A model generated the notes under the pieces. The model made no database searches. It had not been told where the DNA came from and saw nothing but the letters and a program-made list of their open reading frames with translations. The position numbers were made by a program, and so were the translations under genes. Of a stretch of 64,000 nucleotides of DNA, positions 9,308-64,000 are shown piece after piece (positions within the stretch are counted from its first letter, which is position 1; the number at the start of each line of letters is the position of its first letter). This DNA comes from a virus. Lineage: Duplodnaviria > Caudoviricetes. The DNA lies in the IMG/VR virus record IMGVR_UViG_2974638963_000001, positions 54,538 through 118,537 of that record; one strand, given 5' to 3'.

Positions 9308-10112
<805 letters not shown>

Positions 10113-53523: not shown

Positions 53524-53601
53524 GGTTACGTGTGGGTGTGTGCAATAGGGGTGGGGGCTTGGGCTAGTCTCCGAACCGCCCCCTATTGTATCACGGTTGC
53601 T

Positions 53602-53841
53602 TTAGTTTGTCAACGGTTGCATACTCAAAAGATTTGTAAAGTTTTGTAAGATAATTCTCAAAGCTAGGTCTTTACTATTGGGGCTACCATCTGCCAAAGC
53701 ACTTGATGCTATATCTGTAATGGCATCAGCCGCTACCCGATTAATAACTAAGTAACCTTTAGCATTTAATTCTGCTACTAATTGATTAAGTTGTTCTTGG
53801 CTCATTTCTTTGTTAGGGCTTAATTCGATAACGTTTGACAT
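53602..53841 (-). CDS. Pre-early hypothetical protein
   Basis: SD GAGG before ATG 53841. Confidence 0.65.
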   Translation of the reverse strand: MSNVIELSPNKEMSQEQLNQLVAELNAKGYLVINRVAADAITDIASSALADGSPNSKDLALRIILQNFTNLLSMQPLTN

Positions 53842-53937
53842 AATGACCTCACACAATTTAAGAATATTGATATTAGCTGGTTAACGTCTAACTAAGTAAC
53901 TAACTAGGGCTAACCAACTAATAGAGATTATATCAAA

Positions 53938-54654
53938 CTAGGCAGAAATAGCAACCAGTTTATTAAACTTACTGCTTAAATAGTCTCTTTCTTCCTGAGT
54001 ATAACTACACCATGCCGTTTCGATATGTTCCGCTAATGCTTCTGGGTCGTGCAGTTCTTCCATCACTTGATCAATGAATTGTTCACCAGCCATGCGATAC
54101 CCAACGTTTAACACGTCATTAACAAGCGTAGCATCTACAACTTGAAAGCCCATTTCACGAGCAACAGATAACACGCCTTGATGATCATCGTATACAGTGA
54201 TAACAGCGTTTGGATACATAGCTTGTAAGATCTCAAAGTATTTGCGTTTGTATTCAGCATCACGGCTGTAATAAACGTCTTTGATATCTTCAAGGGCAAA
54301 ATAACGGGCTAAGGTAGTTCTACTCATGATACTGGCGGCTTGCGGCTTATTGGTTATTAATCCTTGTTTGCGTAGGTAGTAATAATCGGATTTGTACATT
54401 GTTCTGGCTGTTACTATAATATTATGAGTATCACCTTTGTTAATATTCTCTTTCATGACAGCCGCTAGAGGTAACAAGGTATCAGCTTGTACTAGCTCAT
54501 GAGTACAAGCGTTTTGAATATATCCAGTTAAATCTAGGTTGCCAGTAGCTTCATCTAGGTATGGTCTAACACGATGAAAGCTATTTATTACAGTGCCGTC
54601 AAGGTCAAAGATATTAAGAAACTTGATATCATTAAATACTCGTGTTTGTTGCAT
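53938..54654 (-). CDS. dmp: Deoxynucleoside-5'-monophosphatase (HAD family)
   Basis: IFDLDGT, TAR, YDD motifs; position at the start of the T5 FST region. Confidence 0.9.
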   Translation of the reverse strand: MQQTRVFNDIKFLNIFDLDGTVINSFHRVRPYLDEATGNLDLTGYIQNACTHELVQADTLLPLAAVMKENINKGDTHNIIVTARTMYKSDYYYLRKQGLITNKPQAASIMSRTTLARYFALEDIKDVYYSRDAEYKRKYFEILQAMYPNAVITVYDDHQGVLSVAREMGFQVVDATLVNDVLNVGYRMAGEQFIDQVMEELHDPEALAEHIETAWCSYTQEERDYLSSKFNKLVAISA

Positions 54655-54739
54655 GGTTGTTACCTCTCGCATTTAAGCGGTTTATTTTGGAGTTGTAAGT
54701 ATAAAGAAAGCCCCTGAATATATCAAGGGCTTAACAGTG

Positions 54740-55204
54740 TTATTCTTCAGTGAACAAAGCAGGCTGAACAGGATTAATAAAAGTTACTTTAATTTTGTAA
54801 GGGCTTTCGCTTCTAGCATTAATAGGTGATACTAGCACTTGCCAGCCAGCTTCTACAAAGTCCGCTAGGTCTGAGAATAGAAAATCGCTCTCTGTCATTA
54901 ACACAATAACTTCGGTTACATCTACCTTGCTTGTATCAATATCAATAAAGGAGTAATAATCCTCTAATGATTTTGCAACGTTTTCTATATGTTGGGTAGG
55001 CAAGCCACCCGTTACACCTTCCGCAATATCGCCAAAGATGCGAGGTAAAGCCGACTCGATAGCAGTCGCAACGCTTGCCGCTTCTTGGTCGTTGTTGATC
55101 AAGCCTTTACCATAACGAATAATTGAGCCGTCAACAATGTTAACATTCTCAATAGCCCCGTTGTCAAAAGTTTTGCCGTTTGAGTATACAGTGATCATTT
55201 TCAT
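54740..55204 (-). CDS. Pre-early hypothetical protein
   Basis: Between dmp and A1, SD-like GAGAG. Confidence 0.7.
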   Translation of the reverse strand: MKMITVYSNGKTFDNGAIENVNIVDGSIIRYGKGLINNDQEAASVATAIESALPRIFGDIAEGVTGGLPTQHIENVAKSLEDYYSFIDIDTSKVDVTEVIVLMTESDFLFSDLADFVEAGWQVLVSPINARSESPYKIKVTFINPVQPALFTEE

Positions 55205-55340
55205 GGTTATTCTCTCTTATAGGTTAGCCCCTATTTATTTAGGGGCTTTAAGGTTTATTTGTTTTTAGTTAACAAGATATAACAAGTTGTTAACAACGTG
55301 CCAGCGCAGCCAGCTAGAAATAGAGGGGCTAAATCAATCA

Positions 55341-57104
55341 TTATGCGCGGTATTTCCCGTCTGTGATACGCACTAATTGACGCTGACCGTTGTTATAGGT
55401 AATCAAGTGCGTTTGAGTCCAGCTAGAAGCCCCGATATTATAGCCCATATCTAATGAGCCAGCAACGCCAGCAGTGTAACATAAGCCGTTAACGCTTGCA
55501 CTATGAGTGTGACCAGTGTTTAAGCGTCCTAACTTCGCAAACTGTTTAGGATTCCCCCGTGAGCCATTAGCCCCAACATGACCATGACAGCCCATTTCTA
55601 CGCCAGCGACCTTGAAAGATTCATCAACAACTAGGAAACGAATCTGATTAGCATTTTCTAACTTAGCTATCTTTTTCAAGCCCACTTCTAGGGCATTCCA
55701 GCCGCTTGCGGATTTATGTTCCGCAATATGGCGATATTTATCAAGGTTCATCTCATGATAAAGAATAGCATTAGCAGGATCTAGCCCTATATTAACATCC
55801 CATGCTTTGAGCCAGTTGGCTAGAGCTAAATCATGATTGGACTCAACCACAATGATTTCACTGAATGGGCGCATGATATCGCGGAAAATGTTAGCCGTAT
55901 CAATGAGATCTTGTTTAACGCTTTCTTGCCCTAAGTAGTAACGCTCCGCAATAAAATCATAATCACGTCTATTGTGATGATTTCGGCTTGTAAAGTCGTG
56001 GCTATCATGACAGATAGTAAACTTAGGTTTTAACAAGTCAATCATCGACGGGTAGCCATGCAAGCCAGCACCCCATGAACAAGCCGCTACAACATGATCA
56101 ATCTTTTCTGCATGAAGATCACCGAACTGTAAAGCAGAAACATGATTTTCAGCTCTAAACACTTGATCACTTGTTACATAAGTATCAAGATCATAAAACG
56201 AGCCATCATCATTCATGCACTGTAAATGGCGTATAAATGGCGTGTCATTATCGTCGAACTCAACTAAGATTGCACCATAGCAATGCAATGATTCTGCTTT
56301 CTGACCAGCTAGGCGCTGAATATAATTTCGATGTGTGACCGTCCCCGTTGTAGTTAACTCTCTAACTAGCTCACCTTTAAGAGCAGGGATATTAAACATT
56401 TGATACTTGGCAGCAGGTACAACCGCATGATGATTGCCTATAATGCTTTCAATGCCTGTTAATGGGTTAATAGCAGTAGGGGAAATGCATAAAGCACCTA
56501 AGAAAGATACTTTCTTACTTTCGCCTAGAAACACGTTTTCCTCAACAAAATATGGGGTTAATTCTGGCGCATACCACAATGAATCATCTTGCGCGGTCGG
56601 ATTCGCAAAGCCTTTCTTGTTATATGCAAACTTAGAAATGATTAATTCAGCTCCTAAATACTCTGCATACGTTTCTAAGGATTTCAAGAAAGGCACGTTA
56701 ACAGAAGTATTATTTTGCGCGGTTGTCAAAATAAATGCTTTACCTGATTTAACTTGCCATTTTGATTGAGCAGGTTTTAGAGAGCCACCATATACAGGCA
56801 AATCAGGGTTATCAGCTTTACGGGCTTTAGCCTTTGTTATTGGCTTGTTCTCGTCTAGCCATACTCTAAGCGCAGCCGTGAATTCTGGTTTAATAGCTTG
56901 CTCACCGTCCTCATTGTCATACGCTAGATTTTCCGCTATAACATCGACTAAAGTAGACAGCGCAAACGCTTCGTTTGCCGTTTTATCTTTTACGGATTCT
57001 AGGCGTTTTCCGTAGTAATTAACACCTTTAGCGCATTCTAGCAGGTCAGCCGCCAGATTTTTATCTGCTAATAGGTCTGAAATAGTTTTTAAAATGGGAT
57101 TCAT
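55341..57104 (-). CDS. A1: A1 protein (host DNA degradation / second-step transfer; metallophosphoesterase-like)
   Basis: TTAQNNT, GDLH, SNHD, HGHVGANGSRG, GHTHS, SSW motifs. Confidence 0.9.
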   Translation of the reverse strand: MNPILKTISDLLADKNLAADLLECAKGVNYYGKRLESVKDKTANEAFALSTLVDVIAENLAYDNEDGEQAIKPEFTAALRVWLDENKPITKAKARKADNPDLPVYGGSLKPAQSKWQVKSGKAFILTTAQNNTSVNVPFLKSLETYAEYLGAELIISKFAYNKKGFANPTAQDDSLWYAPELTPYFVEENVFLGESKKVSFLGALCISPTAINPLTGIESIIGNHHAVVPAAKYQMFNIPALKGELVRELTTTGTVTHRNYIQRLAGQKAESLHCYGAILVEFDDNDTPFIRHLQCMNDDGSFYDLDTYVTSDQVFRAENHVSALQFGDLHAEKIDHVVAACSWGAGLHGYPSMIDLLKPKFTICHDSHDFTSRNHHNRRDYDFIAERYYLGQESVKQDLIDTANIFRDIMRPFSEIIVVESNHDLALANWLKAWDVNIGLDPANAILYHEMNLDKYRHIAEHKSASGWNALEVGLKKIAKLENANQIRFLVVDESFKVAGVEMGCHGHVGANGSRGNPKQFAKLGRLNTGHTHSASVNGLCYTAGVAGSLDMGYNIGASSWTQTHLITYNNGQRQLVRITDGKYRA

Positions 57105-57179
57105 TTATATAGCTCCTAATTAAAGGGTTTTAGTGGTAACGAACTAGCCACCTCCGAAAAGGTGACTAGGGCGGATCAC

Positions 57180-57644
57180 TTATAGGCGGTCAATGCCATT
57201 TTCTTCCATAATGCCCTGTAATACATCATCAGGGCATACCTTTTTAACAATCATAATGATTGTATCAAGGTTGGCTTTTTCAAGACTAGCCCAATCATCT
57301 TTTTCTTGGTCGTTGTCGGACATATCACGCTGAAGGGCACGAATCAGAGTGATTTTTTGTAATTTCTTACCGCCGCCAACTGGCTGCTTTACTTCAAGGG
57401 CACGATAAATTTTGTTACCGTTTTCATCTTTAGAAGATGATAACTTAGTACGGACAGCCGTAGCCGTGTATGTTTCACCATCACCGCTAATTTGTTCACC
57501 GATGGATGCTAGATTATCGACAGCGTTTGCCGATGCAATTTCTTCGTCGGTCGGTTCAGCAGGGTTAACAAATGCCGCTAAATATAAGTTGATAGCTTTT
57601 GCGGTTACTTCTTCATTCCAGCGTTTTTTAGATGGAGTAGACAT
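57180..57644 (-). CDS. A2: A2-like DNA-binding protein
   Basis: WNEEVT...AVRTKLSS...VGGG...K...SLEKA pattern, position upstream of A1. Confidence 0.78.
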   Translation of the reverse strand: MSTPSKKRWNEEVTAKAINLYLAAFVNPAEPTDEEIASANAVDNLASIGEQISGDGETYTATAVRTKLSSSKDENGNKIYRALEVKQPVGGGKKLQKITLIRALQRDMSDNDQEKDDWASLEKANLDTIIMIVKKVCPDDVLQGIMEENGIDRL

Positions 57645-57842
57645 AATTTAATACCTCATTTTTCATGGTTTAAGTTTAAGTTATACACTTCTCATTAGTG
57701 TATTATGAATAGAGCCTGTCTGTCAAGCCCTATTAATTACACTATCAAGAGGAGTCTAAGCAATGGCAACTGCTTAATGAAGCCCTGAATTTCAAGGCTT
57801 GTTTAAGCATCCAATCTTAGCTATTTCACCGTGTTTTCCGTA

Positions 57843-57855
57843 TTGTTAAAGAGCG
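57843..57855 (-). promoter_or_regulatory. boxA antitermination element
   Basis: CGCTCTTTAACAA on - strand, ~20 nt after the inferred TSS. Confidence 0.8.
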
Positions 57856-57881
57856 TGGTTAGTTGCCTAACCTTTGAATCT

Positions 57882-57910
57882 ATCTTATATCAGCCGCCTG
57901 ATTTTGTCAA
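57882..57910 (-). promoter_or_regulatory. Pre-early promoter
   Basis: TTGACA-17-TAAGAT. Confidence 0.85.
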
Positions 57911-57914
57911 GCGT

Positions 57915-58214
57915 TTATTTCCAAATACTTCTATTAATGCTTTGTTGCGATTCTATCGTTTCTACAACCTGAATCACTATGCCTAGATTATGCCATGCTT
58001 CGCTTGCCTTGTCAAACAGTTTTTTATCACCGTCGAAATACTGATCTAGCGTAGCCTTGTAAGCGTTGCGAATTATCTTAGCTTCTTTCCTTAGCCTTGT
58101 CAAGTCGATTCTATGATCTATTCTCTCGGTCAATGCTTCGTTTGCCGTAATGCCCTGAGAAGCTACTAGAGTGCATAATACTTGATTAAAAGATTGTTTT
58201 GCCATATTTGCCAT
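57915..58214 (-). CDS. Pre-early hypothetical protein
   Basis: Own promoter, SD GAGG. Confidence 0.75.
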   Translation of the reverse strand: MANMAKQSFNQVLCTLVASQGITANEALTERIDHRIDLTRLRKEAKIIRNAYKATLDQYFDGDKKLFDKASEAWHNLGIVIQVVETIESQQSINRSIWK

Positions 58215-58252
58215 TCCTCAATAGTTAGGTTAGGCGGCTGATATAAGTTAGA

Positions 58253-58265
58253 TTGTTAAAGAGCG
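58253..58265 (-). promoter_or_regulatory. boxA antitermination element
   Basis: CGCTCTTTAACAA on - strand. Confidence 0.8.
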
Positions 58266-58281
58266 TGTTTCTATGGTTAGT

Positions 58282-58310
58282 ATCTTAAAGCCTAGTATTG
58301 TTTTTGTCAA
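58282..58310 (-). promoter_or_regulatory. Pre-early promoter
   Basis: TTGACA-17-TAAGAT. Confidence 0.85.
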
Positions 58311-58652
58311 CTATTTATTTGTGTACTGCATAACATTTTCTATATATACGATTCTAACCGCTATATATAAGCAACGATAGAAGCGCAAGGCTAATTGATC
58401 TTTTGCTATCCCGTAGTGAATAGGCATTTTTGACGCTTCGGGAAATTTTTCTTCTAGATCTGATAATAGGCGAGTTAATGAAGCCCATTTAACAGAACCA
58501 TTATCAAGCCCTTTTTCAAGATCTAACATGATGCAAGTTGCTACCTTATCGATATCATTTCTAACCACTATAGGAAATGATAATAATTCTAGTATTAACT
58601 GTAATGTATCATTGCTTAAAAAGGTTGCTTTAATCTTTCTTGCTTTTGCCAT
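58311..58652 (-). CDS. Pre-early hypothetical protein
   Basis: SD GGAG. Confidence 0.75.
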   Translation of the reverse strand: MAKARKIKATFLSNDTLQLILELLSFPIVVRNDIDKVATCIMLDLEKGLDNGSVKWASLTRLLSDLEEKFPEASKMPIHYGIAKDQLALRFYRCLYIAVRIVYIENVMQYTNK

Positions 58653-58700
58653 TTGTATTTACTCCGATAGTATATACTAGGCTTTAAGATACTAACCGTA

Positions 58701-58713
58701 TTTTTAAAGAGCG
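58701..58713 (-). promoter_or_regulatory. boxA antitermination element
   Basis: CGCTCTTTAAAAA on - strand. Confidence 0.75.
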
Positions 58714-58800
58714 TTACTACTAGGAACTTATCCAGTTATTCATATGCCACTGGCGGCTACTTCGTGGGCTTTCCTTGCCTTGTTCCTTACTATGTGACTA

Positions 58801-58828
58801 AGTATACATGAGCCAATTTAAAAAGCAA
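58801..58828 (-). promoter_or_regulatory. Pre-early promoter (leftward)
   Basis: TTGCTT-16-TATACT with A/T-rich UP element. Confidence 0.65.
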
Positions 58829-58942
58829 CTATTATTTTTAATTATTTTGCTGGCGGTAGTGTATAAGGAAACGGGCGCGTGATTATACACAAGTTAACTA
58901 GGAAGTAAAGAAAATTACTTATTAAAAAGATACAAAAAGAGC

Positions 58943-58970
58943 TTGCATTTAACAACCGTGGTGCTAATAT
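58943..58970 (+). promoter_or_regulatory. Pre-early promoter (rightward)
   Basis: TTGCAT-16-TAATAT with A-tract UP element. Confidence 0.6.
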
Positions 58971-59006
58971 ATATCTCATCGAAAGGCAAACAAAGGAGGT
59001 AGCAAA

Positions 59007-60086
59007 ATGACCGTCAAGGCACTTAAAAGCAATCGAGCGATAGCTCGAAGCGGTCACATTAACACAATTGAGCAATTAAGACAATCAGACGTTGGGGGTT
59101 TTCCATCAACTAGTATTGTTAGACGAGCTACGCCTAGGCAGCTTAATAATATAATGCATACGGCAGGGAGTACAGAACAATCTGTATTAACTCCTTTAAG
59201 TAGTCAAAGTGCGTATAAACATATTAAAAATTTGCTTGATTTACTTGTTTCCGGTGTGGTAGAATACATTACAATCTACTCGCCAGATGGTACGTTAATA
59301 AGTGATCACTATTATTCTACACGTCGATCTATGGAGGAGGATTGCGATACCGCCTACTCTAAGGCTAAGGACGATTTACTAATCTTAGCTAAATCTAGTA
59401 ATGGCATCATGTTAACATGGGGTAGCTATGACGCTAGAAAGTCGGCAGGTGTGGGCGTCAAGGTAGAGTGTGAGGTTTTCAATCAAAATGATAGCCTATT
59501 TGACGTTATCTATGATATATTTAACCATGCTAACTATAACGATTTAATTGACGTGGATTTATCCGATAAGCTACGCAATCAGGGCGTTATTATACAGGGT
59601 CATACAGTTAGCGAGAACAAGTATACACAAGTAATTATAGAGGAATTTTTAAAATCATCTATAAGCGAAGCTGGCGAAACAGCAGAGCAACCAATCGAAA
59701 CCAAAGAGGAAACTAGCAAAATGAAAACAACATTCAGCACTATCTTAGCAGAAAACAAAGCAGCAGCAATCAACGCTGGCGAAATGGAAACGGGGCGTTT
59801 AGTCGTTAATCGTATTGTGGCAGTCGTTAAAAAGCGTGCTCCGCTAATGGTTAAAGGGTACATTGATACACCAGTGGGGCGCATTGCCGTAGCAAATTTA
59901 TTTGCCGCTTTAGTGCGAGAATATCTACCTGATAACGCACTGGCAGGACGTGCGGCAGACGGGGCGGTGAAGTCGGCAGCTTATGAAGTATTGCGTGATA
60001 TTGATATACCAGCAATTCTAGAAGAAGTATTGGCAGGATTCAAAGACGCTGAGCCAGCAGCAGCAAGCGAAAAGATCGCACTGTAA
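59007..60086 (+). CDS. Pre-early hypothetical protein (conserved-looking C-terminus, PLMVKGYIDTPVGR)
   Basis: SD AAGGAGGT; possible internal start at 59721 (GAGG...ATG). Confidence 0.8.
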   Translation: MTVKALKSNRAIARSGHINTIEQLRQSDVGGFPSTSIVRRATPRQLNNIMHTAGSTEQSVLTPLSSQSAYKHIKNLLDLLVSGVVEYITIYSPDGTLISDHYYSTRRSMEEDCDTAYSKAKDDLLILAKSSNGIMLTWGSYDARKSAGVGVKVECEVFNQNDSLFDVIYDIFNHANYNDLIDVDLSDKLRNQGVIIQGHTVSENKYTQVIIEEFLKSSISEAGETAEQPIETKEETSKMKTTFSTILAENKAAAINAGEMETGRLVVNRIVAVVKKRAPLMVKGYIDTPVGRIAVANLFAALVREYLPDNALAGRAADGAVKSAAYEVLRDIDIPAILEEVLAGFKDAEPAAASEKIAL

Positions 60087-60134
60087 TTTGATGGTAGGGG
60101 CTAGAACTTAGCCCCTAATTAAAGAGGTGATACA

Positions 60135-60536
60135 ATGGCAAAAGTTATAAATTTTGAGTGTGTACACGTCTTAAATATCCGTACAACGGGGCAAGCGTTA
60201 ACATGGGAGAGCGCACTAGAACAGATTAGTAAGTGTACTAAATGCCAATATGTTACTGTTACATTAGGTCGCTTGGTTTTCCGTATTGACTGGCTAATAC
60301 TGGCTAGCATTTACGAATCTTTACAATTAAATATGCCGTTTAGTGTTGCGGTAGGGGGCGAAGTCTGGTATATTGAACAATATCAGGACGTGGAACAATT
60401 GTTTTATAACGTTTCTGTAAGCCGTCTTTTTATGAAAGAGGGAGTAGCTTATTATGTGGGCGATATTATCGGGCTATGTGGAAAAGTTACTAAGGGTCAA
60501 GGGATTACGAATCATAGTACTGTTAATTTTAGCTGA
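60135..60536 (+). CDS. Pre-early hypothetical protein
   Basis: SD GAGGTG. Confidence 0.7.
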   Translation: MAKVINFECVHVLNIRTTGQALTWESALEQISKCTKCQYVTVTLGRLVFRIDWLILASIYESLQLNMPFSVAVGGEVWYIEQYQDVEQLFYNVSVSRLFMKEGVAYYVGDIIGLCGKVTKGQGITNHSTVNFS

Positions 60537-60719
60537 ACTATTATATCGTGTTTTCTTTGAATCTAAGTATTACTTTTATACGCTCCAATGACTATATTTA
60601 AAGTGTTACTAGTTAGCGGCTGTATATGTATAGTTTGGCATTTACTAGCCCATTGGCTAGATAATAGACGATTAAAACGTATGGGTAAAGGATGATATCT
60701 AACCTATAGGGGGGTTAAA

Positions 60720-60836
60720 ATGTGGGATCTATTTCTATCCCCCAATGGGGATTTAAACTGGCTTTCTTTGTTGCTGGCGGCTGTATGCACTATAGCTATT
60801 CTAGTGATCTTTGATGATAACGAGCCGTTACTATAG
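60720..60836 (+). CDS. Single-TM microprotein (38 aa)
   Basis: MWDLFLSPNGDLNWLSLLLAAVCTIAILVIFDD...; SD AGGGGG. Confidence 0.55.
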   Translation: MWDLFLSPNGDLNWLSLLLAAVCTIAILVIFDDNEPLL

Positions 60837-60845
60837 GGGCTTTAT

Positions 60846-60932
60846 ATGAAGTGTGACAAGGTAGGCGTATATTGCAACATTCTAGCGGCTGGCATCTTTG
60901 GGTTAATGATTTTATCATGTATCTTAAAGTAA
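60846..60932 (+). CDS. Single-TM microprotein (28 aa)
   Basis: MKCDKVGVYCNILAAGIFGLMILSCILK; SD AGGGG. Confidence 0.5.
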   Translation: MKCDKVGVYCNILAAGIFGLMILSCILK

Positions 60933-61011
60933 TTCTTTATATGTTGGCTATTTTATGCCCTGTGTTCGGGGCTTCAAGCGGCTTAATGTGGTTAATGACT
61001 ATATTAGCAGG

Positions 61012-61416
61012 ATAGCACAAAAAGCTAAAACAATTTAATCTAGGTAGGGTAATATAGCCCTACTAACACAAAACGAGGGTTTAAACATGGAAAAATTAAA
61101 ACTGGCATTCCCTACTGCATTTTCTGAGCTAGTTGAATGCTTTGGGGAAAAGCAAGCTGAAATTGAGCTTGAGAAGTTAGTCGAGCGTCAAAAGATTAAC
61201 CCTAAGTTAGATTTAGAAGATAAACCGCTTCTAGCTGCTTTTGTGTGGGAAGAAACGGAACAGGGTCATGAATACTGGCGAGAGCTTCTATACTCAAAAG
61301 ATTTATTGCCACCACTGTTTTATTTTCTGTCCGACTCTAGTCATACAGACGACGAATAGCACAAAAAGCTAAAACAAATTAATCTAGGTAGGGTAATATA
61401 GCCCTACCAACACAAA
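61012..61416 (+). repeat. 61-bp direct repeat (61012-61072 and 61356-61416), each upstream of a paralogous gene
   Basis: 59/61 identical, contains a GTAGGG...CCCTAC hairpin. Confidence 0.92.
61087..61359 (+). CDS. Hypothetical protein (AFxW...QGxEYW motif)
   Basis: SD GAGG. Confidence 0.75.
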   Translation: MEKLKLAFPTAFSELVECFGEKQAEIELEKLVERQKINPKLDLEDKPLLAAFVWEETEQGHEYWRELLYSKDLLPPLFYFLSDSSHTDDE

Positions 61417-61445
61417 TAAACCAATGATTTGAGAGGTAGTAAAAA

Positions 61446-61874
61446 ATGACCATTATCCAACGTATGCCTAAATTTGTTTCTACTATGGTAGCAGTATTTG
61501 ACGGGGACGCAGACCTTGCAGCGCAGATCATTAACGAGTTAGAAGCGGCAGGGGTAGAATTCGCAGAAAAAGATTGTGTTAGCTTGGGCGCGGCTTTTGA
61601 TTGGCAGCAATCCCCGCAAGGTCGGGAGTATTGGGATATGATGGACGATAAAGCGGAGCAGGTACTAGGCGAAGATTACCGCTTGCCAGACTTTCAAGAG
61701 TGCGGTTGTCCAGCTTGTCAGATGACCGTTAAATTAGGCGGCACAATTGATGCAATCATGGTTGTAGGATCGCTGGGCTTGCTAGTAGAGGCTATTCCTG
61801 AGCCAATGATCAAAGATATGGTAACTCGTGCTAAGGAAGATCGCCTTAAAGAAAGAGCAGGGCGCACGCACTAA
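61446..61874 (+). CDS. Hypothetical protein (AFxW...QGxEYW motif, CGCPAC)
   Basis: SD GAGGT. Confidence 0.75.
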   Translation: MTIIQRMPKFVSTMVAVFDGDADLAAQIINELEAAGVEFAEKDCVSLGAAFDWQQSPQGREYWDMMDDKAEQVLGEDYRLPDFQECGCPACQMTVKLGGTIDAIMVVGSLGLLVEAIPEPMIKDMVTRAKEDRLKERAGRTH

Positions 61875-61925
61875 CACTAATAAAAGCCCCCTGAACCAAT
61901 AGGGGGCGTTTAAGGAGAAGTTATA

Positions 61926-62036
61926 ATGATTATTTTTACTTTGTGGGGCGTCATTCAGTGGGCTACTTTAGTCTATATATTGGTTACTCCGTATATTTTA
62001 GAAGCGGTTGTAACTCAACAATTAGCAGGCTTATAA
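61926..62036 (+). CDS. Single-TM microprotein (36 aa)
   Basis: MIIFTLWGVIQWATLVYILVTPY...; SD AGGAG. Confidence 0.55.
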   Translation: MIIFTLWGVIQWATLVYILVTPYILEAVVTQQLAGL

Positions 62037-62117
62037 TATTTGACTAGCTTATGCTCTTATGATACATTAAGAGCATAGACGAGTTAAATTAAACCGTAAA
62101 TAATCGAGGATATCAAA

Positions 62118-62387
62118 ATGAAATTAACTAAATTGGTGTTAGCTACTTTGGTGTTAGGCTTGGCAGGTTGCGCGACTACTGGCGAAAAACCAGCTATAAC
62201 CCCTAAAACGTGTATAGGCATCATGGAGGTTTCAACCATGAATAAAACCTACTCGGTGGACTTGAAAGCCGTCAAAACTAACAAGTATGGCGAAACGTTC
62301 TATCAGGTTAAAGGCTACAATCCATTTGTAGGCGGGGCAGGTTGGGTTCGTGAAGATGCTTTTCAGTCTGTAATGTGTGATGAATGA
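62118..62387 (+). CDS. Lipoprotein, Cor-like superinfection-exclusion candidate
   Basis: Signal peptide with lipobox LAGC; second Cys pair and GWV motif. Confidence 0.65.
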   Translation: MKLTKLVLATLVLGLAGCATTGEKPAITPKTCIGIMEVSTMNKTYSVDLKAVKTNKYGETFYQVKGYNPFVGGAGWVREDAFQSVMCDE

Positions 62388-62580
62388 GATCATCTATATT
62401 AAACGCTTTATATCCCTATACTGGCACTTTATAGGGGTAGTGGAAGCGATGCACGAAAAGGCAGTTAGTGAGAATCACCAATACGGGATTGACCTAACTA
62501 GACGTAAACTAGACCGCCTTAAAATTGATCTGCTAGGCTGGCAAGATAAGCTGATGCATGAGATAAAAAATACAAAATAG
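62377..62580 (+). CDS. Hypothetical protein
   Basis: Overlapping ORF in operon. Confidence 0.55.
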   Translation: MMNEIIYIKRFISLYWHFIGVVEAMHEKAVSENHQYGIDLTRRKLDRLKIDLLGWQDKLMHEIKNTK

Positions 62581-62584
62581 TCAT

Positions 62585-62613
62585 TGACAATATAGCCCTT
62601 TCGATGTATATTA
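62585..62613 (+). promoter_or_regulatory. Promoter
   Basis: TTGACA-17-TATATT. Confidence 0.7.
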
Positions 62614-62643
62614 TATGCATACACCAAACGAGAGGGTTACAAA

Positions 62644-62874
62644 ATGATTATTCGTATTTCTGGCATTAACATCAACAACGATTTAGATATGTTTGACGCA
62701 CTGGCAAGCGCAGGCTATGCAGGGGCACTAGATCGCCTAGATGATATAACAGCAGAGTTAGACGTGAGAGATTATGCCTTTAGACAACGGGCAGGGATCG
62801 AGGAAGCGCAAGTGATGCACCTATTGCGAGAACTTACCGAGATAGACGGGTTAAAAATATCTATTGGTAACTAA
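62644..62874 (+). CDS. Hypothetical protein
   Basis: SD GAGGG. Confidence 0.7.
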   Translation: MIIRISGININNDLDMFDALASAGYAGALDRLDDITAELDVRDYAFRQRAGIEEAQVMHLLRELTEIDGLKISIGN

Positions 62875-62884
62875 CAACCCCAAC

Positions 62885-62911
62885 AGCCTTGCAGAAATGC
62901 AGGGCTTTTTT
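62885..62911 (+). terminator. Terminator ending rightward pre-early transcription
   Basis: AGCCTTGCA-GAAA-TGCAGGGCT followed by T tract. Confidence 0.9.
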
Positions 62912-63024
62912 GTACCCCCAATAAACAAGCCCCTACCTTACTACCCCATCAACAATAAAACCTCTCACATTGGCTTACACAGAGCGTCATAATAGACAAC
63001 CGCATATTGTTCTAAGTCTATAAG

Positions 63025-63040
63025 CTGTATATCTATACAG
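63025..63040. promoter_or_regulatory. LexA (SOS) box
   Basis: CTGTATATCTATACAG, 15/16 to CTGTATATATATACAG. Confidence 0.75.
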
Positions 63041-63077
63041 GGTCAAAACTGTGGATAACTTCTGTGGATAAGTCGAT

Positions 63078-63092
63078 CTGAATCGTTTCAGC
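63078..63092. promoter_or_regulatory. Cra (FruR) operator-like site
   Basis: CTGAATCGTTTCAGC vs GCTGAAWCGNTTCA. Confidence 0.65.
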
Positions 63093-63100
63093 AAGCCCCC

Positions 63101-63117
63101 AACTGGTCAGACCTGTG
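63101..63117. promoter_or_regulatory. FadR operator-like site
   Basis: AACTGGTCAGACCTGTG vs AACTGGTCNGACCAGTT (2 mismatches). Confidence 0.65.
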
Positions 63118-63131
63118 GGTAACTTCTAAAC

Positions 63132-63156
63132 GCAAGTGAGAAGCATTCGCATTCAT
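63132..63156. promoter_or_regulatory. Fur box-like site
   Basis: GCAAGTGAGAAGCATTCGC (12/19) plus an overlapping hexamer-shifted copy. Confidence 0.5.
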
Positions 63157-63158
63157 TT

Positions 63159-63230
63159 AGCCGTCTAAACGTCTGGACGTCTAAACGTCTAGATGGCTGG
63201 ACGTCTAGATGGCTGGACGTCTAGACGTCC
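63159..63230. repeat. Nine tandem 8-bp Met boxes (MetJ operator array)
   Basis: AGCCGTCT AAACGTCT GGACGTCT AAACGTCT AGATGGCT GGACGTCT AGATGGCT GGACGTCT AGACGTCC vs AGACGTCT. Confidence 0.8.
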
Positions 63231-63357
63231 CTCTGCGCTTATGTGCGTAATCGGGATCGCTTTTTCAAAACGTTACATGCGAGCTAGGCTACATGTGAAT
63301 TTCTGAAAATGCAAATTCCAAAATTCTCGAAAAAATTTTTCCATTCGTAAAATATTC

Positions 63358-63855
63358 TCTCCTGCTCCCTGGCTATCTAAAATAAACTCAAAAATAAAAC
63401 CAACCACCAGCAATTCTCCAACCTTAAAAAATAAAACGTCTTCAGAAGATTCAACGAGTCTCTTTTATGGGACTCGATTTTATTTTTGTCTTTGAGTAAT
63501 GCTATCACCTTAGTTTACAAATCAGTTTTGAGAAGCTGTTTTATTTTTGGTGCTTAAAGTTTGCTGGTGGATTTGCCGGGGAGCAGGGGAGGAGAAAACC
63601 AAAAGATCTACTTGACAACCAGTTTTGCAGAAACCAAATAACGAACCTTGCACACTAGGATTTTATAAACTAGGAATAAATATGCTCTCACGAAATAGGC
63701 GTGAGCAATTCTCCAGTCCCCCGGCTGACTTGTTTTACTGGAATGTCTTCTAGGATGCAAAATATTTAGTGGGATTATTTCTTAGCGTGGATGATCTTGA
63801 GGAAGTCTTGAGAGGATGTGGGTAGATATTAGAGGATGTGCCGGGGAACAGGAGA
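63358..63855. repeat. Long imperfect inverted repeats, injection-stop-signal-like region
   Basis: 63358-63373/63575-63590, 63404-63413/63561-63570, 63710-63725/63840-63855; no ORFs; position after pre-early genes as in T5 iss. Confidence 0.7.
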
Positions 63856-64000
63856 GGAAATCTTAAGGGGCCCAGGAAAATCGTTGTTTGTAGAAAAACG
63901 CACTTAAAACAACCCCCCTGGTAACTAACCGCCTTATATCGAAAAATTATGACCTTAAAGGTGGGTAAAGGGCTTGAAAAATAAAAAATTCATGAGGCCC

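What the first reader, a model, noticed from the sequence alone, without database searches (positions are those of the whole stretch)
63159..63230. Nine tandem MetJ boxes, longer than typical host met operators
Seen: an exact 8-bp register over 72 bp, each unit 6-7/8 to AGACGTCT, including GGACGTCT-AAACG as in natural met operators. Established: MetJ-SAM binds cooperatively to tandem Met boxes, and host operators usually have 2-5. Inference: a high-avidity, SAM-dependent MetJ trap that could derepress Met/SAM synthesis or act as a SAM sensor. It parallels T3 SAMase, which also derepresses the met regulon, but works through DNA rather than an enzyme.
Basis: partly seen in the sequence, partly recalled or inferred. 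Interest (0 to 1): 0.8.

Follow-up and report, generated by a model that had tools for sequence, protein, structure and literature searches.

The report
Host MetJ-box array at phage injection-stop site
Nine head-to-tail copies of the binding site of the host methionine repressor MetJ sit in the terminal repeat of this T5-like phage, at the point where T5 pauses DNA injection, so the phage probably recruits a host metabolic repressor as part of its DNA-end machinery rather than to regulate a gene.

Summary
Window 63159-63230 holds nine exactly phased 8-bp units, each 6-7/8 to AGACGTCT. By the published met-box matrix it scores 88.5 bits. E. coli operators score 19-31 bits and the Providencia metJ/B operator 32-45.

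The window is the right end of a 118,537-bp T5-like (Priunavirus-like) phage with an exact 10,461-bp terminal repeat. The array lies at repeat positions 9,620-9,691, matching T5's first-step-transfer boundary. It sits in a conserved non-coding cassette: a LexA-like box, three DnaA boxes, nine Met boxes, then CTGCGC, T5's 7.9% nick motif. T5 has Fur-like boxes in the same slot and no Met boxes.

Similar arrays occur in or near terminal repeats of unrelated phages (jumbo Rak2-like, Drulisvirus, Ermolevavirus, Vibrio and Aeromonas T5-likes). Nearly all listed hosts belong to MetJ-bearing orders. The degeneracy of the arrays mirrors that of natural met boxes.

My reading is a cis-acting MetJ landing pad in the injection-stop and terminal-repeat region. 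MetJ binding itself is untested.

I found no paper describing this. Earlier notes of this scan reported the same kind of array on other DNA (jumbo coliphages).

The parts
63159..63230 (.). Nine in-phase 8-bp Met-box-like units (predicted MetJ-SAM binding array). This is the right-terminal-repeat copy; an identical copy lies at genome 9,620-9,691.
   Evidence: TRF; unit list; 88.5 bits by the published matrix.
63025..63040 (.). LexA (SOS) box-like palindrome CTGTATATCTATACAG, the counterpart of T5 palindrome D.
   Evidence: It matches the 16-bp core of the SOS-box consensus (taken from memory) in 15 of 16 positions. The same element is found in PSTCR5, T5, Thalassa, VPT02 and AhSzw-1.
63050..63122 (-). 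Three DnaA boxes: TTATCCACA at 63050-63058 and 63063-63071, and TTACCCACA at 63114-63122.
   Evidence: these are the only two perfect boxes in 64 kb. The layout matches the DnaA-box pairs of the T5 iss region (Davison, bioRxiv 10.1101/866236).
63233..63238 (+). CTGCGC motif directly abutting the array. It is the counterpart of the T5 'major single-stranded nick 1, 7.9%' site.
   Evidence: Sequence homology only; nicking was not tested.
63040..63375 (.). Conserved non-coding core of the injection-stop-like region, 94-100% identical to Providencia phage PSTCR5. Flanks are 50-75% identical.
   Evidence: Sliding identity.
53540..64000 (.). Right copy of the exact 10,461-bp direct terminal repeat. 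The window end is the record end. The array ends 770 bp from it.
   Evidence: head/tail blastn, 100% identity; window position in the record.
55341..57104 (-). A1-like pre-early 'DNA transfer protein'.
   Evidence: phrog_1745, E 1e-198.
57180..57644 (-). A2-like pre-early DNA-binding protein.
   Evidence: phrog_1725, E 7e-28.
62885..62906 (+). Terminator-like hairpin closing the rightward pre-early genes, upstream of the cassette.

Best explanation
The array is a high-affinity, cooperative binding array for the host methionine repressor MetJ with its corepressor SAM. It is not an operator of any gene. It is one module of a conserved, non-transcribed cassette of host-protein sites: a LexA-like box, DnaA boxes, then Met boxes, ending at the CTGCGC nick motif. 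The cassette sits at the inner end of the 10.5-kb terminal repeat, where T5 halts first-step DNA transfer, and 770 bp from the right physical end in the other repeat copy. I infer that it acts in cis. Host proteins coat this stretch as soon as it enters the cell and build a bulky nucleoprotein block. That block marks or insulates the first-step boundary and, in concatemers, the genome junction. It could stop RNA polymerase from reading or pulling through, or anchor and position the DNA for nicking or terminase. Shown here: the sequence match, the position, the conservation and the recurrence in other phages. Inferred: MetJ binding. More weakly inferred: the block or insulator role.
For: (1) By the published matrix and thresholds (PMC3228920) the array has 9 boxes and 88.5 bits. 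E. coli metJ/B scores 31.2, metA 27.1, metF 24.9, metE/R 21.1 and metC 18.9 bits. The Providencia metJ/B operator scores 32-45 bits.
(2) The array is unique in the genome and far above shuffles.
(3) In TRF-defined arrays from 13 phage lineages, 123 of 167 non-consensus bases are the second choice of natural met boxes. At position 3 the transversion A>C beats the transition A>G 37:4, as in natural boxes (84:27). Non-consensus shares correlate at r = 0.91.
(4) Providencia and Morganella encode MetJ 91-93% identical to E. coli MetJ. The phage has no MetJ gene.
(5) The array is at terminal-repeat positions 9,620-9,691 of 10,461. T5's shear point is at 9,618 and its nick 1 at 9,661-9,668 of a 10,139-bp repeat.
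(6) The order LexA-like box, DnaA boxes, slot, CTGCGC is the same in PSTCR5, Thalassa, VPT02, AhSzw-1 and T5. The slot holds Met boxes (5-16) or, in T5, Fur-like boxes.
(7) The conserved core is 94-100% identical to PSTCR5 while its flanks are 50-75%.
(8) Arrays occur in or near terminal repeats of unrelated phages: NNA-G4 bases 1-40 of its annotated left terminal repeat, CBB, vB_Ec-M-J and PGT2. Across three searches every listed host but one lies in a MetJ-bearing order (orders from PMC3228920 and PMC4239095).
(9) No sigma-70-like promoter overlaps the array.
Against: No binding experiment exists. T5 itself has no Met boxes anywhere, so MetJ cannot be a general requirement for two-step injection. 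Distant A1-bearing metagenomic relatives show no array within 10 kb. Xanthomonas phage XbC2 keeps a strong array although Xanthomonadales lack MetJ; it is a close relative of Pectobacterium phage CBB, so this may reflect recent descent. Many units carry G at position 6 (AGATGGCT), which weakens one half-site. Proteins bound on the cytoplasmic side do not obviously stop inward DNA movement, so the block mechanism is speculative. Non-coding space in these phages is concentrated in terminal repeats, which may partly explain where the arrays lie. The host tally is confounded by phage phylogeny, and each BLAST search returned exactly 101 records, probably a cap.
Confidence: 0.5

Rival explanations
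1. MetJ decoy. The array soaks up MetJ-SAM, derepresses the host met regulon and raises methionine and SAM supply for the phage, or reports SAM level.
For: The predicted affinity is very high. There are two copies per genome, and replication would multiply the sites far beyond a few hundred MetJ dimers per cell (that number is from my own knowledge). Arrays occur in many phages of MetJ-bearing hosts. The array is in the first DNA to enter the cell.
Against: At infection only 18 boxes enter. The phage carries A1, which in T5 is needed for early host-DNA degradation, so host genes could hardly respond. The fixed position inside a conserved cis cassette, with a different operator type (Fur-like) in the same slot in T5, argues for occupancy as such rather than methionine physiology. 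A decoy would not need a terminal-repeat location in three unrelated phage groups.
Confidence: 0.17
2. The array is bound by a phage-encoded protein, for example a ribbon-helix-helix protein, A2, or a terminase or nickase accessory factor. Its likeness to met boxes is convergent.
For: Ribbon-helix-helix proteins such as plasmid omega bind tandem short repeats (my own knowledge). A2-like DNA-binding protein and many small unknown ORFs are encoded nearby. XbC2 keeps the array in a host order without MetJ.
Against: Unrelated phage families (Demerecviridae, Rak2-like jumbo phages, Autographiviridae, Zobellviridae) share the same 8-bp consensus and the same degeneracy as natural met boxes, with no known shared DNA-binding protein. 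T5 has A2 but no array. Pfam found no DNA-binding domain in the ORFs tested here, including the neighbouring 61087-61359, 61446-61874 and 62644-62874.
Confidence: 0.12
3. The array acts as DNA structure only. Tandem quasi-palindromes form hairpins, cruciforms or slipped structures that serve nicking, terminal-repeat duplication or packaging, with no sequence-specific protein.
For: Single-stranded folding gives -21.1 kcal/mol, z = -5.2 against shuffles. The array abuts the nick motif. Hairpin-primed duplication of the repeat has been proposed for T7 (my own knowledge).
Against: Any tandem palindrome folds, so the z-score does not discriminate. Many units are non-palindromic (AGATGGCT), without compensating partners in register. 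A structural role predicts neither the match to the MetJ degeneracy spectrum nor the restriction to phages of MetJ-bearing hosts.
Confidence: 0.08
4. A neutral microsatellite that resembles met boxes by chance.
For: Short tandem repeats expand by slippage. Non-coding terminal regions tolerate them.
Against: It is 96.7% conserved against PSTCR5 while nearby non-coding DNA is 50-75% identical. It recurs with different unit orders in many lineages. Its consensus equals AGACGTCT and it is exactly 8-bp phased.
Confidence: 0.03

Closest known systems
MetJ operators (tandem met boxes) of the gammaproteobacterial methionine regulon (metA, metJ/metBL, metC, metE/R, metF)
   Same: The 8-bp unit, the AGACGTCT consensus, the strict head-to-tail phase and the same tolerated variants (GGACGTCT, AAACGTCT, AAACATCT, GGACGGCT, AGACGTCC). 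It passes the published identification thresholds.
   Different: It has 9 boxes and 88.5 bits, against 2-6 boxes and 19-45 bits in host operators. It overlaps no promoter, neighbours no methionine gene, and lies in a phage terminal repeat among other host-protein sites.
Phage T5 'Repeat Region 3', the proposed injection stop signal (iss) (Heusterspreute 1987 as cited by Davison; Davison, bioRxiv 10.1101/866236)
   Same: It lies in an untranslated stretch at the inner end of the left terminal repeat, about 9.6 kb from the left end. It has a palindrome D-like element, paired DnaA boxes and the CTGCGC nick motif, with A1 and A2 upstream.
   Different: T5 has palindromes E-J and direct repeat C (Fur-box-like by my scan) where this phage has nine Met boxes. 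T5 has no Met boxes at all. Davison's analysis mentions DnaA, IHF and FIS but not MetJ, LexA or Fur.
Host-factor sites and polymerase pause sites at phage genome junctions: IHF site in lambda cosB; T7 concatemer-junction pause site and the short-repeat arrays beside the T7 terminal repeat (my own knowledge, not checked here)
   Same: These are cis elements in or beside terminal or cohesive-end regions. They use a host protein or a stalled polymerase to organise DNA-end processing.
   Different: The proteins and sequences are different. No role of MetJ in packaging or injection is known. This is a resemblance in logic only.
T3 SAM lyase (SAMase) and titration loci such as datA for DnaA
   Same: They are ways to change the occupancy of a host regulator or the SAM-dependent state of the cell.
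   Different: SAMase is an enzyme that acts in trans. datA is chromosomal. Here the context points to a cis role, and titration by one genome is small.

Membership tests
MetJ operator (tandem met boxes) | Two or more adjacent 8-bp boxes in exact head-to-tail phase | tested here: met
   Nine units, period 8, no indels.
MetJ operator (tandem met boxes) | Each box at least 1/4 of the consensus score and the whole site at least the consensus score (12.58 bits), by the Augustus and Spicer matrix | tested here: met
   All 9 boxes pass. Total 88.5 bits, mean 9.8 per box.
MetJ operator (tandem met boxes) | Degeneracy pattern like that of natural boxes | tested here: met
   All 11 non-consensus bases of this array are the natural second choice. 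Across lineages the figure is 123 of 167, r = 0.91.
MetJ operator (tandem met boxes) | The host encodes MetJ | tested here: met
   Providencia and Morganella MetJ are 91-93% identical to E. coli MetJ. The host of this record is inferred from 79.5% identity to Providencia phage PSTCR5.
MetJ operator (tandem met boxes) | Overlaps or adjoins the promoter of a methionine or SAM gene and represses it | tested here: not met
   No promoter-like site at the array and no methionine gene nearby. The region lies between convergent transcription units.
MetJ operator (tandem met boxes) | SAM-dependent binding of MetJ | not testable with these tools
   Needs EMSA, footprinting or ChIP.
T5-type injection-stop region (Repeat Region 3) | Large untranslated region at the inner end of the long terminal repeat, near 8% of the genome | tested here: met
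   Terminal repeat of 10,461 bp. The cassette is at repeat positions about 9,486-9,699, inside a gene-free stretch that starts at about 9,336 and runs past the repeat's end.
T5-type injection-stop region (Repeat Region 3) | Palindrome D-like element followed by paired DnaA boxes and a further DnaA box after a spacer | tested here: met
   The layout is as in T5.
T5-type injection-stop region (Repeat Region 3) | Pre-early genes A1 and A2 in the same terminal repeat | tested here: met
   phrog_1745 and phrog_1725.
T5-type injection-stop region (Repeat Region 3) | Two-step DNA transfer that stops here; a nick at the GCGC site | not testable with these tools
   Only the sequence motif CTGCGC is shown.
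Replication origin with iterons | Iterons and DnaA boxes next to an initiator gene and an AT-rich unwinding element | tested here: not met
   No initiator gene adjoins the region. The units equal met boxes rather than lineage-specific iterons. T5 origins map near mid-genome according to the paper read.

The most novel reading that the evidence does not exclude
The injection-stop region of T5-like phages is a read-out panel of host physiology. It is a cassette of sites for host proteins that bind DNA only in particular metabolic states: MetJ with SAM, Fur with iron in T5, LexA when there is no DNA damage, and DnaA with ATP. Their occupancy at the paused DNA end gates or times the second step of genome entry, or at concatemer junctions the packaging cut. 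Met-box arrays in the terminal repeats of unrelated phages would be the same device.
Probability: 0.1. Interest if true: 0.9.

Novelty: new variant of a known kind. Interest (0 to 1): 0.72.

Why it matters
What halts T5 DNA after the first 8% has been open since the 1960s. The stop region has been described as a thicket of unexplained repeats, with only DnaA boxes given a name. Reading the repeats as operators of host regulators gives named proteins and simple knock-out and binding tests for that question. In this phage the operators are MetJ, LexA-like and DnaA sites, with Fur-like sites in T5. More widely, oversized Met-box arrays in the terminal repeats of T5-like, T7-like and jumbo phages would be a previously undescribed way for phages to use a host metabolic repressor as a structural or sensing part of their DNA ends. 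They would also tie phage DNA transactions to the SAM level.

Tried and rejected
- **Origin-of-replication reading** (DnaA boxes plus repeats): rejected. There is no initiator gene, the units are met boxes, and the position equals the T5 iss region.
- **TrpR**, the other repressor known to bind in 8-bp tandem around CTAG: considered and set aside from my own knowledge of its ACTAGT core. Many unit junctions here are CTGG or CTAA, and the whole unit fits the MetJ matrix. I ran no TrpR matrix.
- **MetJ gene in the phage**: none (PF01340).
- **Pfam on neighbouring small ORFs**: no DNA-binding domain found.
- **A1-based search for more relatives in IMG/VR**: only PSTCR5 and three distant metagenomic contigs turned up, and those showed no array within 10 kb. 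Copy-number variation among close relatives therefore rests on PSTCR5 alone.
- **Literature searches** (MetJ with phage, met box, terminal repeat, or AGACGTCT): nothing relevant.
- **Exact 20-bp SOS consensus**: no perfect copy in any locus. The 16-bp core matches with 1-2 mismatches.
- **Not possible with these tools**: a matrix scan of the whole phage collection stratified by host. The three BLAST searches each returned exactly 101 records, probably a cap.

Full report
**The observation.** The stretch reads as nine 8-bp units in perfect register at window 63159-63230: AGCCGTCT AAACGTCT GGACGTCT AAACGTCT AGATGGCT GGACGTCT AGATGGCT GGACGTCT AGACGTCC.
- Tandem Repeats Finder independently reports period 8, 9.0 copies and no indels.
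- Each unit matches AGACGTCT in 6-7 of 8 positions. There is no perfect box anywhere in the window.
- A scan for runs of at least four consecutive 8-mers at 5/8 or better finds only this array in 64 kb.

**Score as a MetJ site.** I used the information matrix and thresholds published for met-box identification (PMC3228920, read).

| Site | Boxes | Bits |
|---|---|---|
| This array | 9 | 88.5 |
| E. coli K-12 metJ/B | 4 | 31.2 |
| E. coli K-12 metA | 4 | 27.1 |
| E. coli K-12 metF | 4 | 24.9 |
| E. coli K-12 metE/R | 3 | 21.1 |
| E. coli K-12 metC | 2 | 18.9 |
| Providencia metJ/B operators | 5-6 | 32-45 |

- The E. coli values come from the same scan. The Providencia values come from the flanks of metJ loci.
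- In the whole 118,537-bp genome only the two copies of the array score high. Thirty block shuffles never exceeded 22.4 bits.
- All 11 non-consensus bases of the array are the second-ranked base of natural met boxes at that position.

**Where it lies.**
- The window is the last 64 kb of a virus record of 118,537 bp. The record carries an exact 10,461-bp direct terminal repeat.
- The region is 79.5% identical to Providencia phage PSTCR5 (Demerecviridae, Priunavirus), which is T5-like.
- The repeat contains A1-like and A2-like pre-early genes and a dmp-position gene.
- The array occupies repeat positions 9,620-9,691 and ends 770 bp from the repeat's right end.
- In T5 the estimated first-step-transfer shear point is 9,618, and the annotated 'major nick 1, 7.9%' is at 9,661-9,668 of a 10,139-bp repeat.
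- The array directly abuts CTCTGCGC, the counterpart of T5's CCCTGCGC nick motif.

**The cassette around the array.** Upstream of the array lie:
- a LexA-box-like palindrome at 63025-63040 (T5 palindrome D);
- the only two perfect DnaA boxes of the window, at 63050 and 63063;
- a third DnaA box with one mismatch at 63114.

This is the architecture Davison describes for the T5 injection stop signal, 'Repeat Region 3' (bioRxiv 10.1101/866236). That paper mentions DnaA, IHF and FIS but not MetJ, LexA or Fur.

**Comparison within T5-like phages.**
- The order LexA-like box, DnaA boxes, a variable slot, CTGCGC holds in PSTCR5, Vibrio phages Thalassa and VPT02, Aeromonas phage AhSzw-1 and T5.
- The slot holds 9 Met boxes in PSTCR5 (85 bits), 5 in Thalassa, 8 in VPT02, and 16 in AhSzw-1 (139 bits) next to one Fur-like box.
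- In T5 the slot holds four Fur-box-like elements and no Met boxes. A three-box degenerate pattern finds none in the entire T5 genome.
- Against PSTCR5, window 63,040-63,375 is 94-100% identical while neighbouring non-coding DNA is 50-75%.
It does not.

**Beyond T5-like phages.** Three BLAST searches seeded with different arrays find similar arrays in several unrelated groups.
- **Rak2-like jumbo phages:** CBB at 709-804 of its 22,456-bp 'redundant repeat', and vB_Ec-M-J inside its annotated direct terminal repeats.
- **Autographiviridae:** Klebsiella Drulisvirus NNA-G4, bases 1-40 of its annotated 255-bp left terminal repeat, and E. coli Ermolevavirus PGT2 at 38-109.
- **Others:** Pseudoalteromonas and Vibrio phages.
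- **Hosts:** all listed hosts are Enterobacterales, Vibrionales, Aeromonadales or Alteromonadales, four of the five orders known to have MetJ; the fifth is Pasteurellales (PMC3228920; PMC4239095 Table 1). The one exception is Xanthomonas phage XbC2, a close relative of Pectobacterium phage CBB.
- **Degeneracy:** for arrays delimited by TRF without the matrix, symmetrised base counts track the natural met-box counts (log-frequency r = 0.85; non-consensus shares r = 0.91). Of 167 non-consensus bases, 123 are the natural second choice. At position 3 the transversion to C outnumbers the transition to G 37:4, as in natural boxes.

**Caveats on this survey.**
- The hit lists are probably capped at 101 records.
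- The phage lineages are few.
- Host and phage phylogeny are confounded.
- Many records have arbitrary start points.

**Interpretation.**
- That the array would bind MetJ-SAM is a strong sequence-based inference (about 0.7) but is untested.
- It is not a classical operator. No promoter-like site overlaps it, no methionine gene is near, and it lies between a terminator that closes the rightward pre-early genes and leftward early genes.
- It sits in a fixed slot of a conserved cassette of host-protein sites, and the slot holds either Met boxes or Fur-like boxes. This argues that what matters is dense occupancy by an abundant host repressor at this point of the DNA.
- I therefore favour a cis role. 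A nucleoprotein block or marker would form at the first-step boundary and, in concatemers, at the genome junction. It would insulate against polymerase read-through or pulling, or position nicking and terminase cutting.
- This last step is inference only. T5's lack of Met boxes shows that MetJ is not universally needed.

**Rivals.**
It keeps some probability because replication multiplies the sites. However, a single infecting genome brings only 18 boxes. A1-type phages are expected to destroy host DNA early; this is known for T5. A decoy would also not need this position.
- **Phage-encoded binder.** It is disfavoured because unrelated phages share the exact host-type consensus, and T5 has A2 without the array.
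- **Pure DNA structure.** Single-stranded folding gives z = -5.2, but this is expected of any tandem palindrome. It explains neither the MetJ-like degeneracy nor the host range.

**Prior knowledge.**
- I found no paper describing Met boxes in phage terminal repeats.
- Earlier notes of this scan report the same kind of array near the ends of jumbo coliphages. I reached the same reading before consulting them, and they are not independent evidence.
- A note on this same stretch suggested a cassette of host operators. That prompted my LexA and Fur checks.
- This report adds the exact placement at the T5-type injection-stop position, the conserved cassette order, and the Met-box/Fur-like interchange in the slot.

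Noticed in passing
window 63025-63040; also L005 3833-3848 (T5), L009 1305-1320, L017 1351-1366, L002 3234-3249: T5 'palindrome D' and its counterparts match the 16-bp core of the LexA SOS-box consensus (from memory) with 1-2 mismatches in every T5-like injection-stop region examined. The Davison paper does not mention LexA.
   Followed up: partly
L005 3976-4135 (T5 AY587007 about 9,475-9,634): T5's direct repeat C and palindromes E-I resemble Fur boxes: TGAGAATCATTATCA has one mismatch to the 15-bp core, and there is a 16/19 match to the 19-bp consensus where none is expected by chance. They fill the slot that Met boxes fill in other genera. AhSzw-1 has one Fur-like box next to its 16 Met boxes.
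   Followed up: partly
window 63890-64000: The last 110 bp or so of the genome (the right end of the terminal repeat) are 92-100% identical to PSTCR5, although the preceding 500 bp are only 35-75% identical. This is a candidate terminase or end-recognition region.
   Followed up: no
window 61012-61072 and 61356-61416: A 61-bp direct repeat, 96.7% identical, lies upstream of two successive small pre-early ORFs (61087-61359 and 61446-61874).
   Followed up: no
L019 2413-2566 and 4021-4193 (Vibrio phage D164): This 46-kb Vibrio phage carries several long 8-bp arrays. One is dominated by ATCCATCT and another alternates ACACATCT and ATACATCC. These are weaker, drifted met-box-like units, and some are annotated as short hypothetical genes.
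   Followed up: no
window 63240-63330: Downstream of the nick motif are several ATGTGC/ATGCAA-type words (for example ATGTGCGTAATCGGGA) that recall T5 direct repeat D (TGTGCAAATCCGACA), which has no known function. Thalassa and VPT02 have clear repeat-D-like copies after their arrays.
   Followed up: no
L003 648-775 (Xanthomonas phage XbC2): This phage has a strong Met-box array although its listed host order lacks MetJ. It suggests either a recent host jump from an enterobacterial lineage or array function without MetJ.
   Followed up: partly
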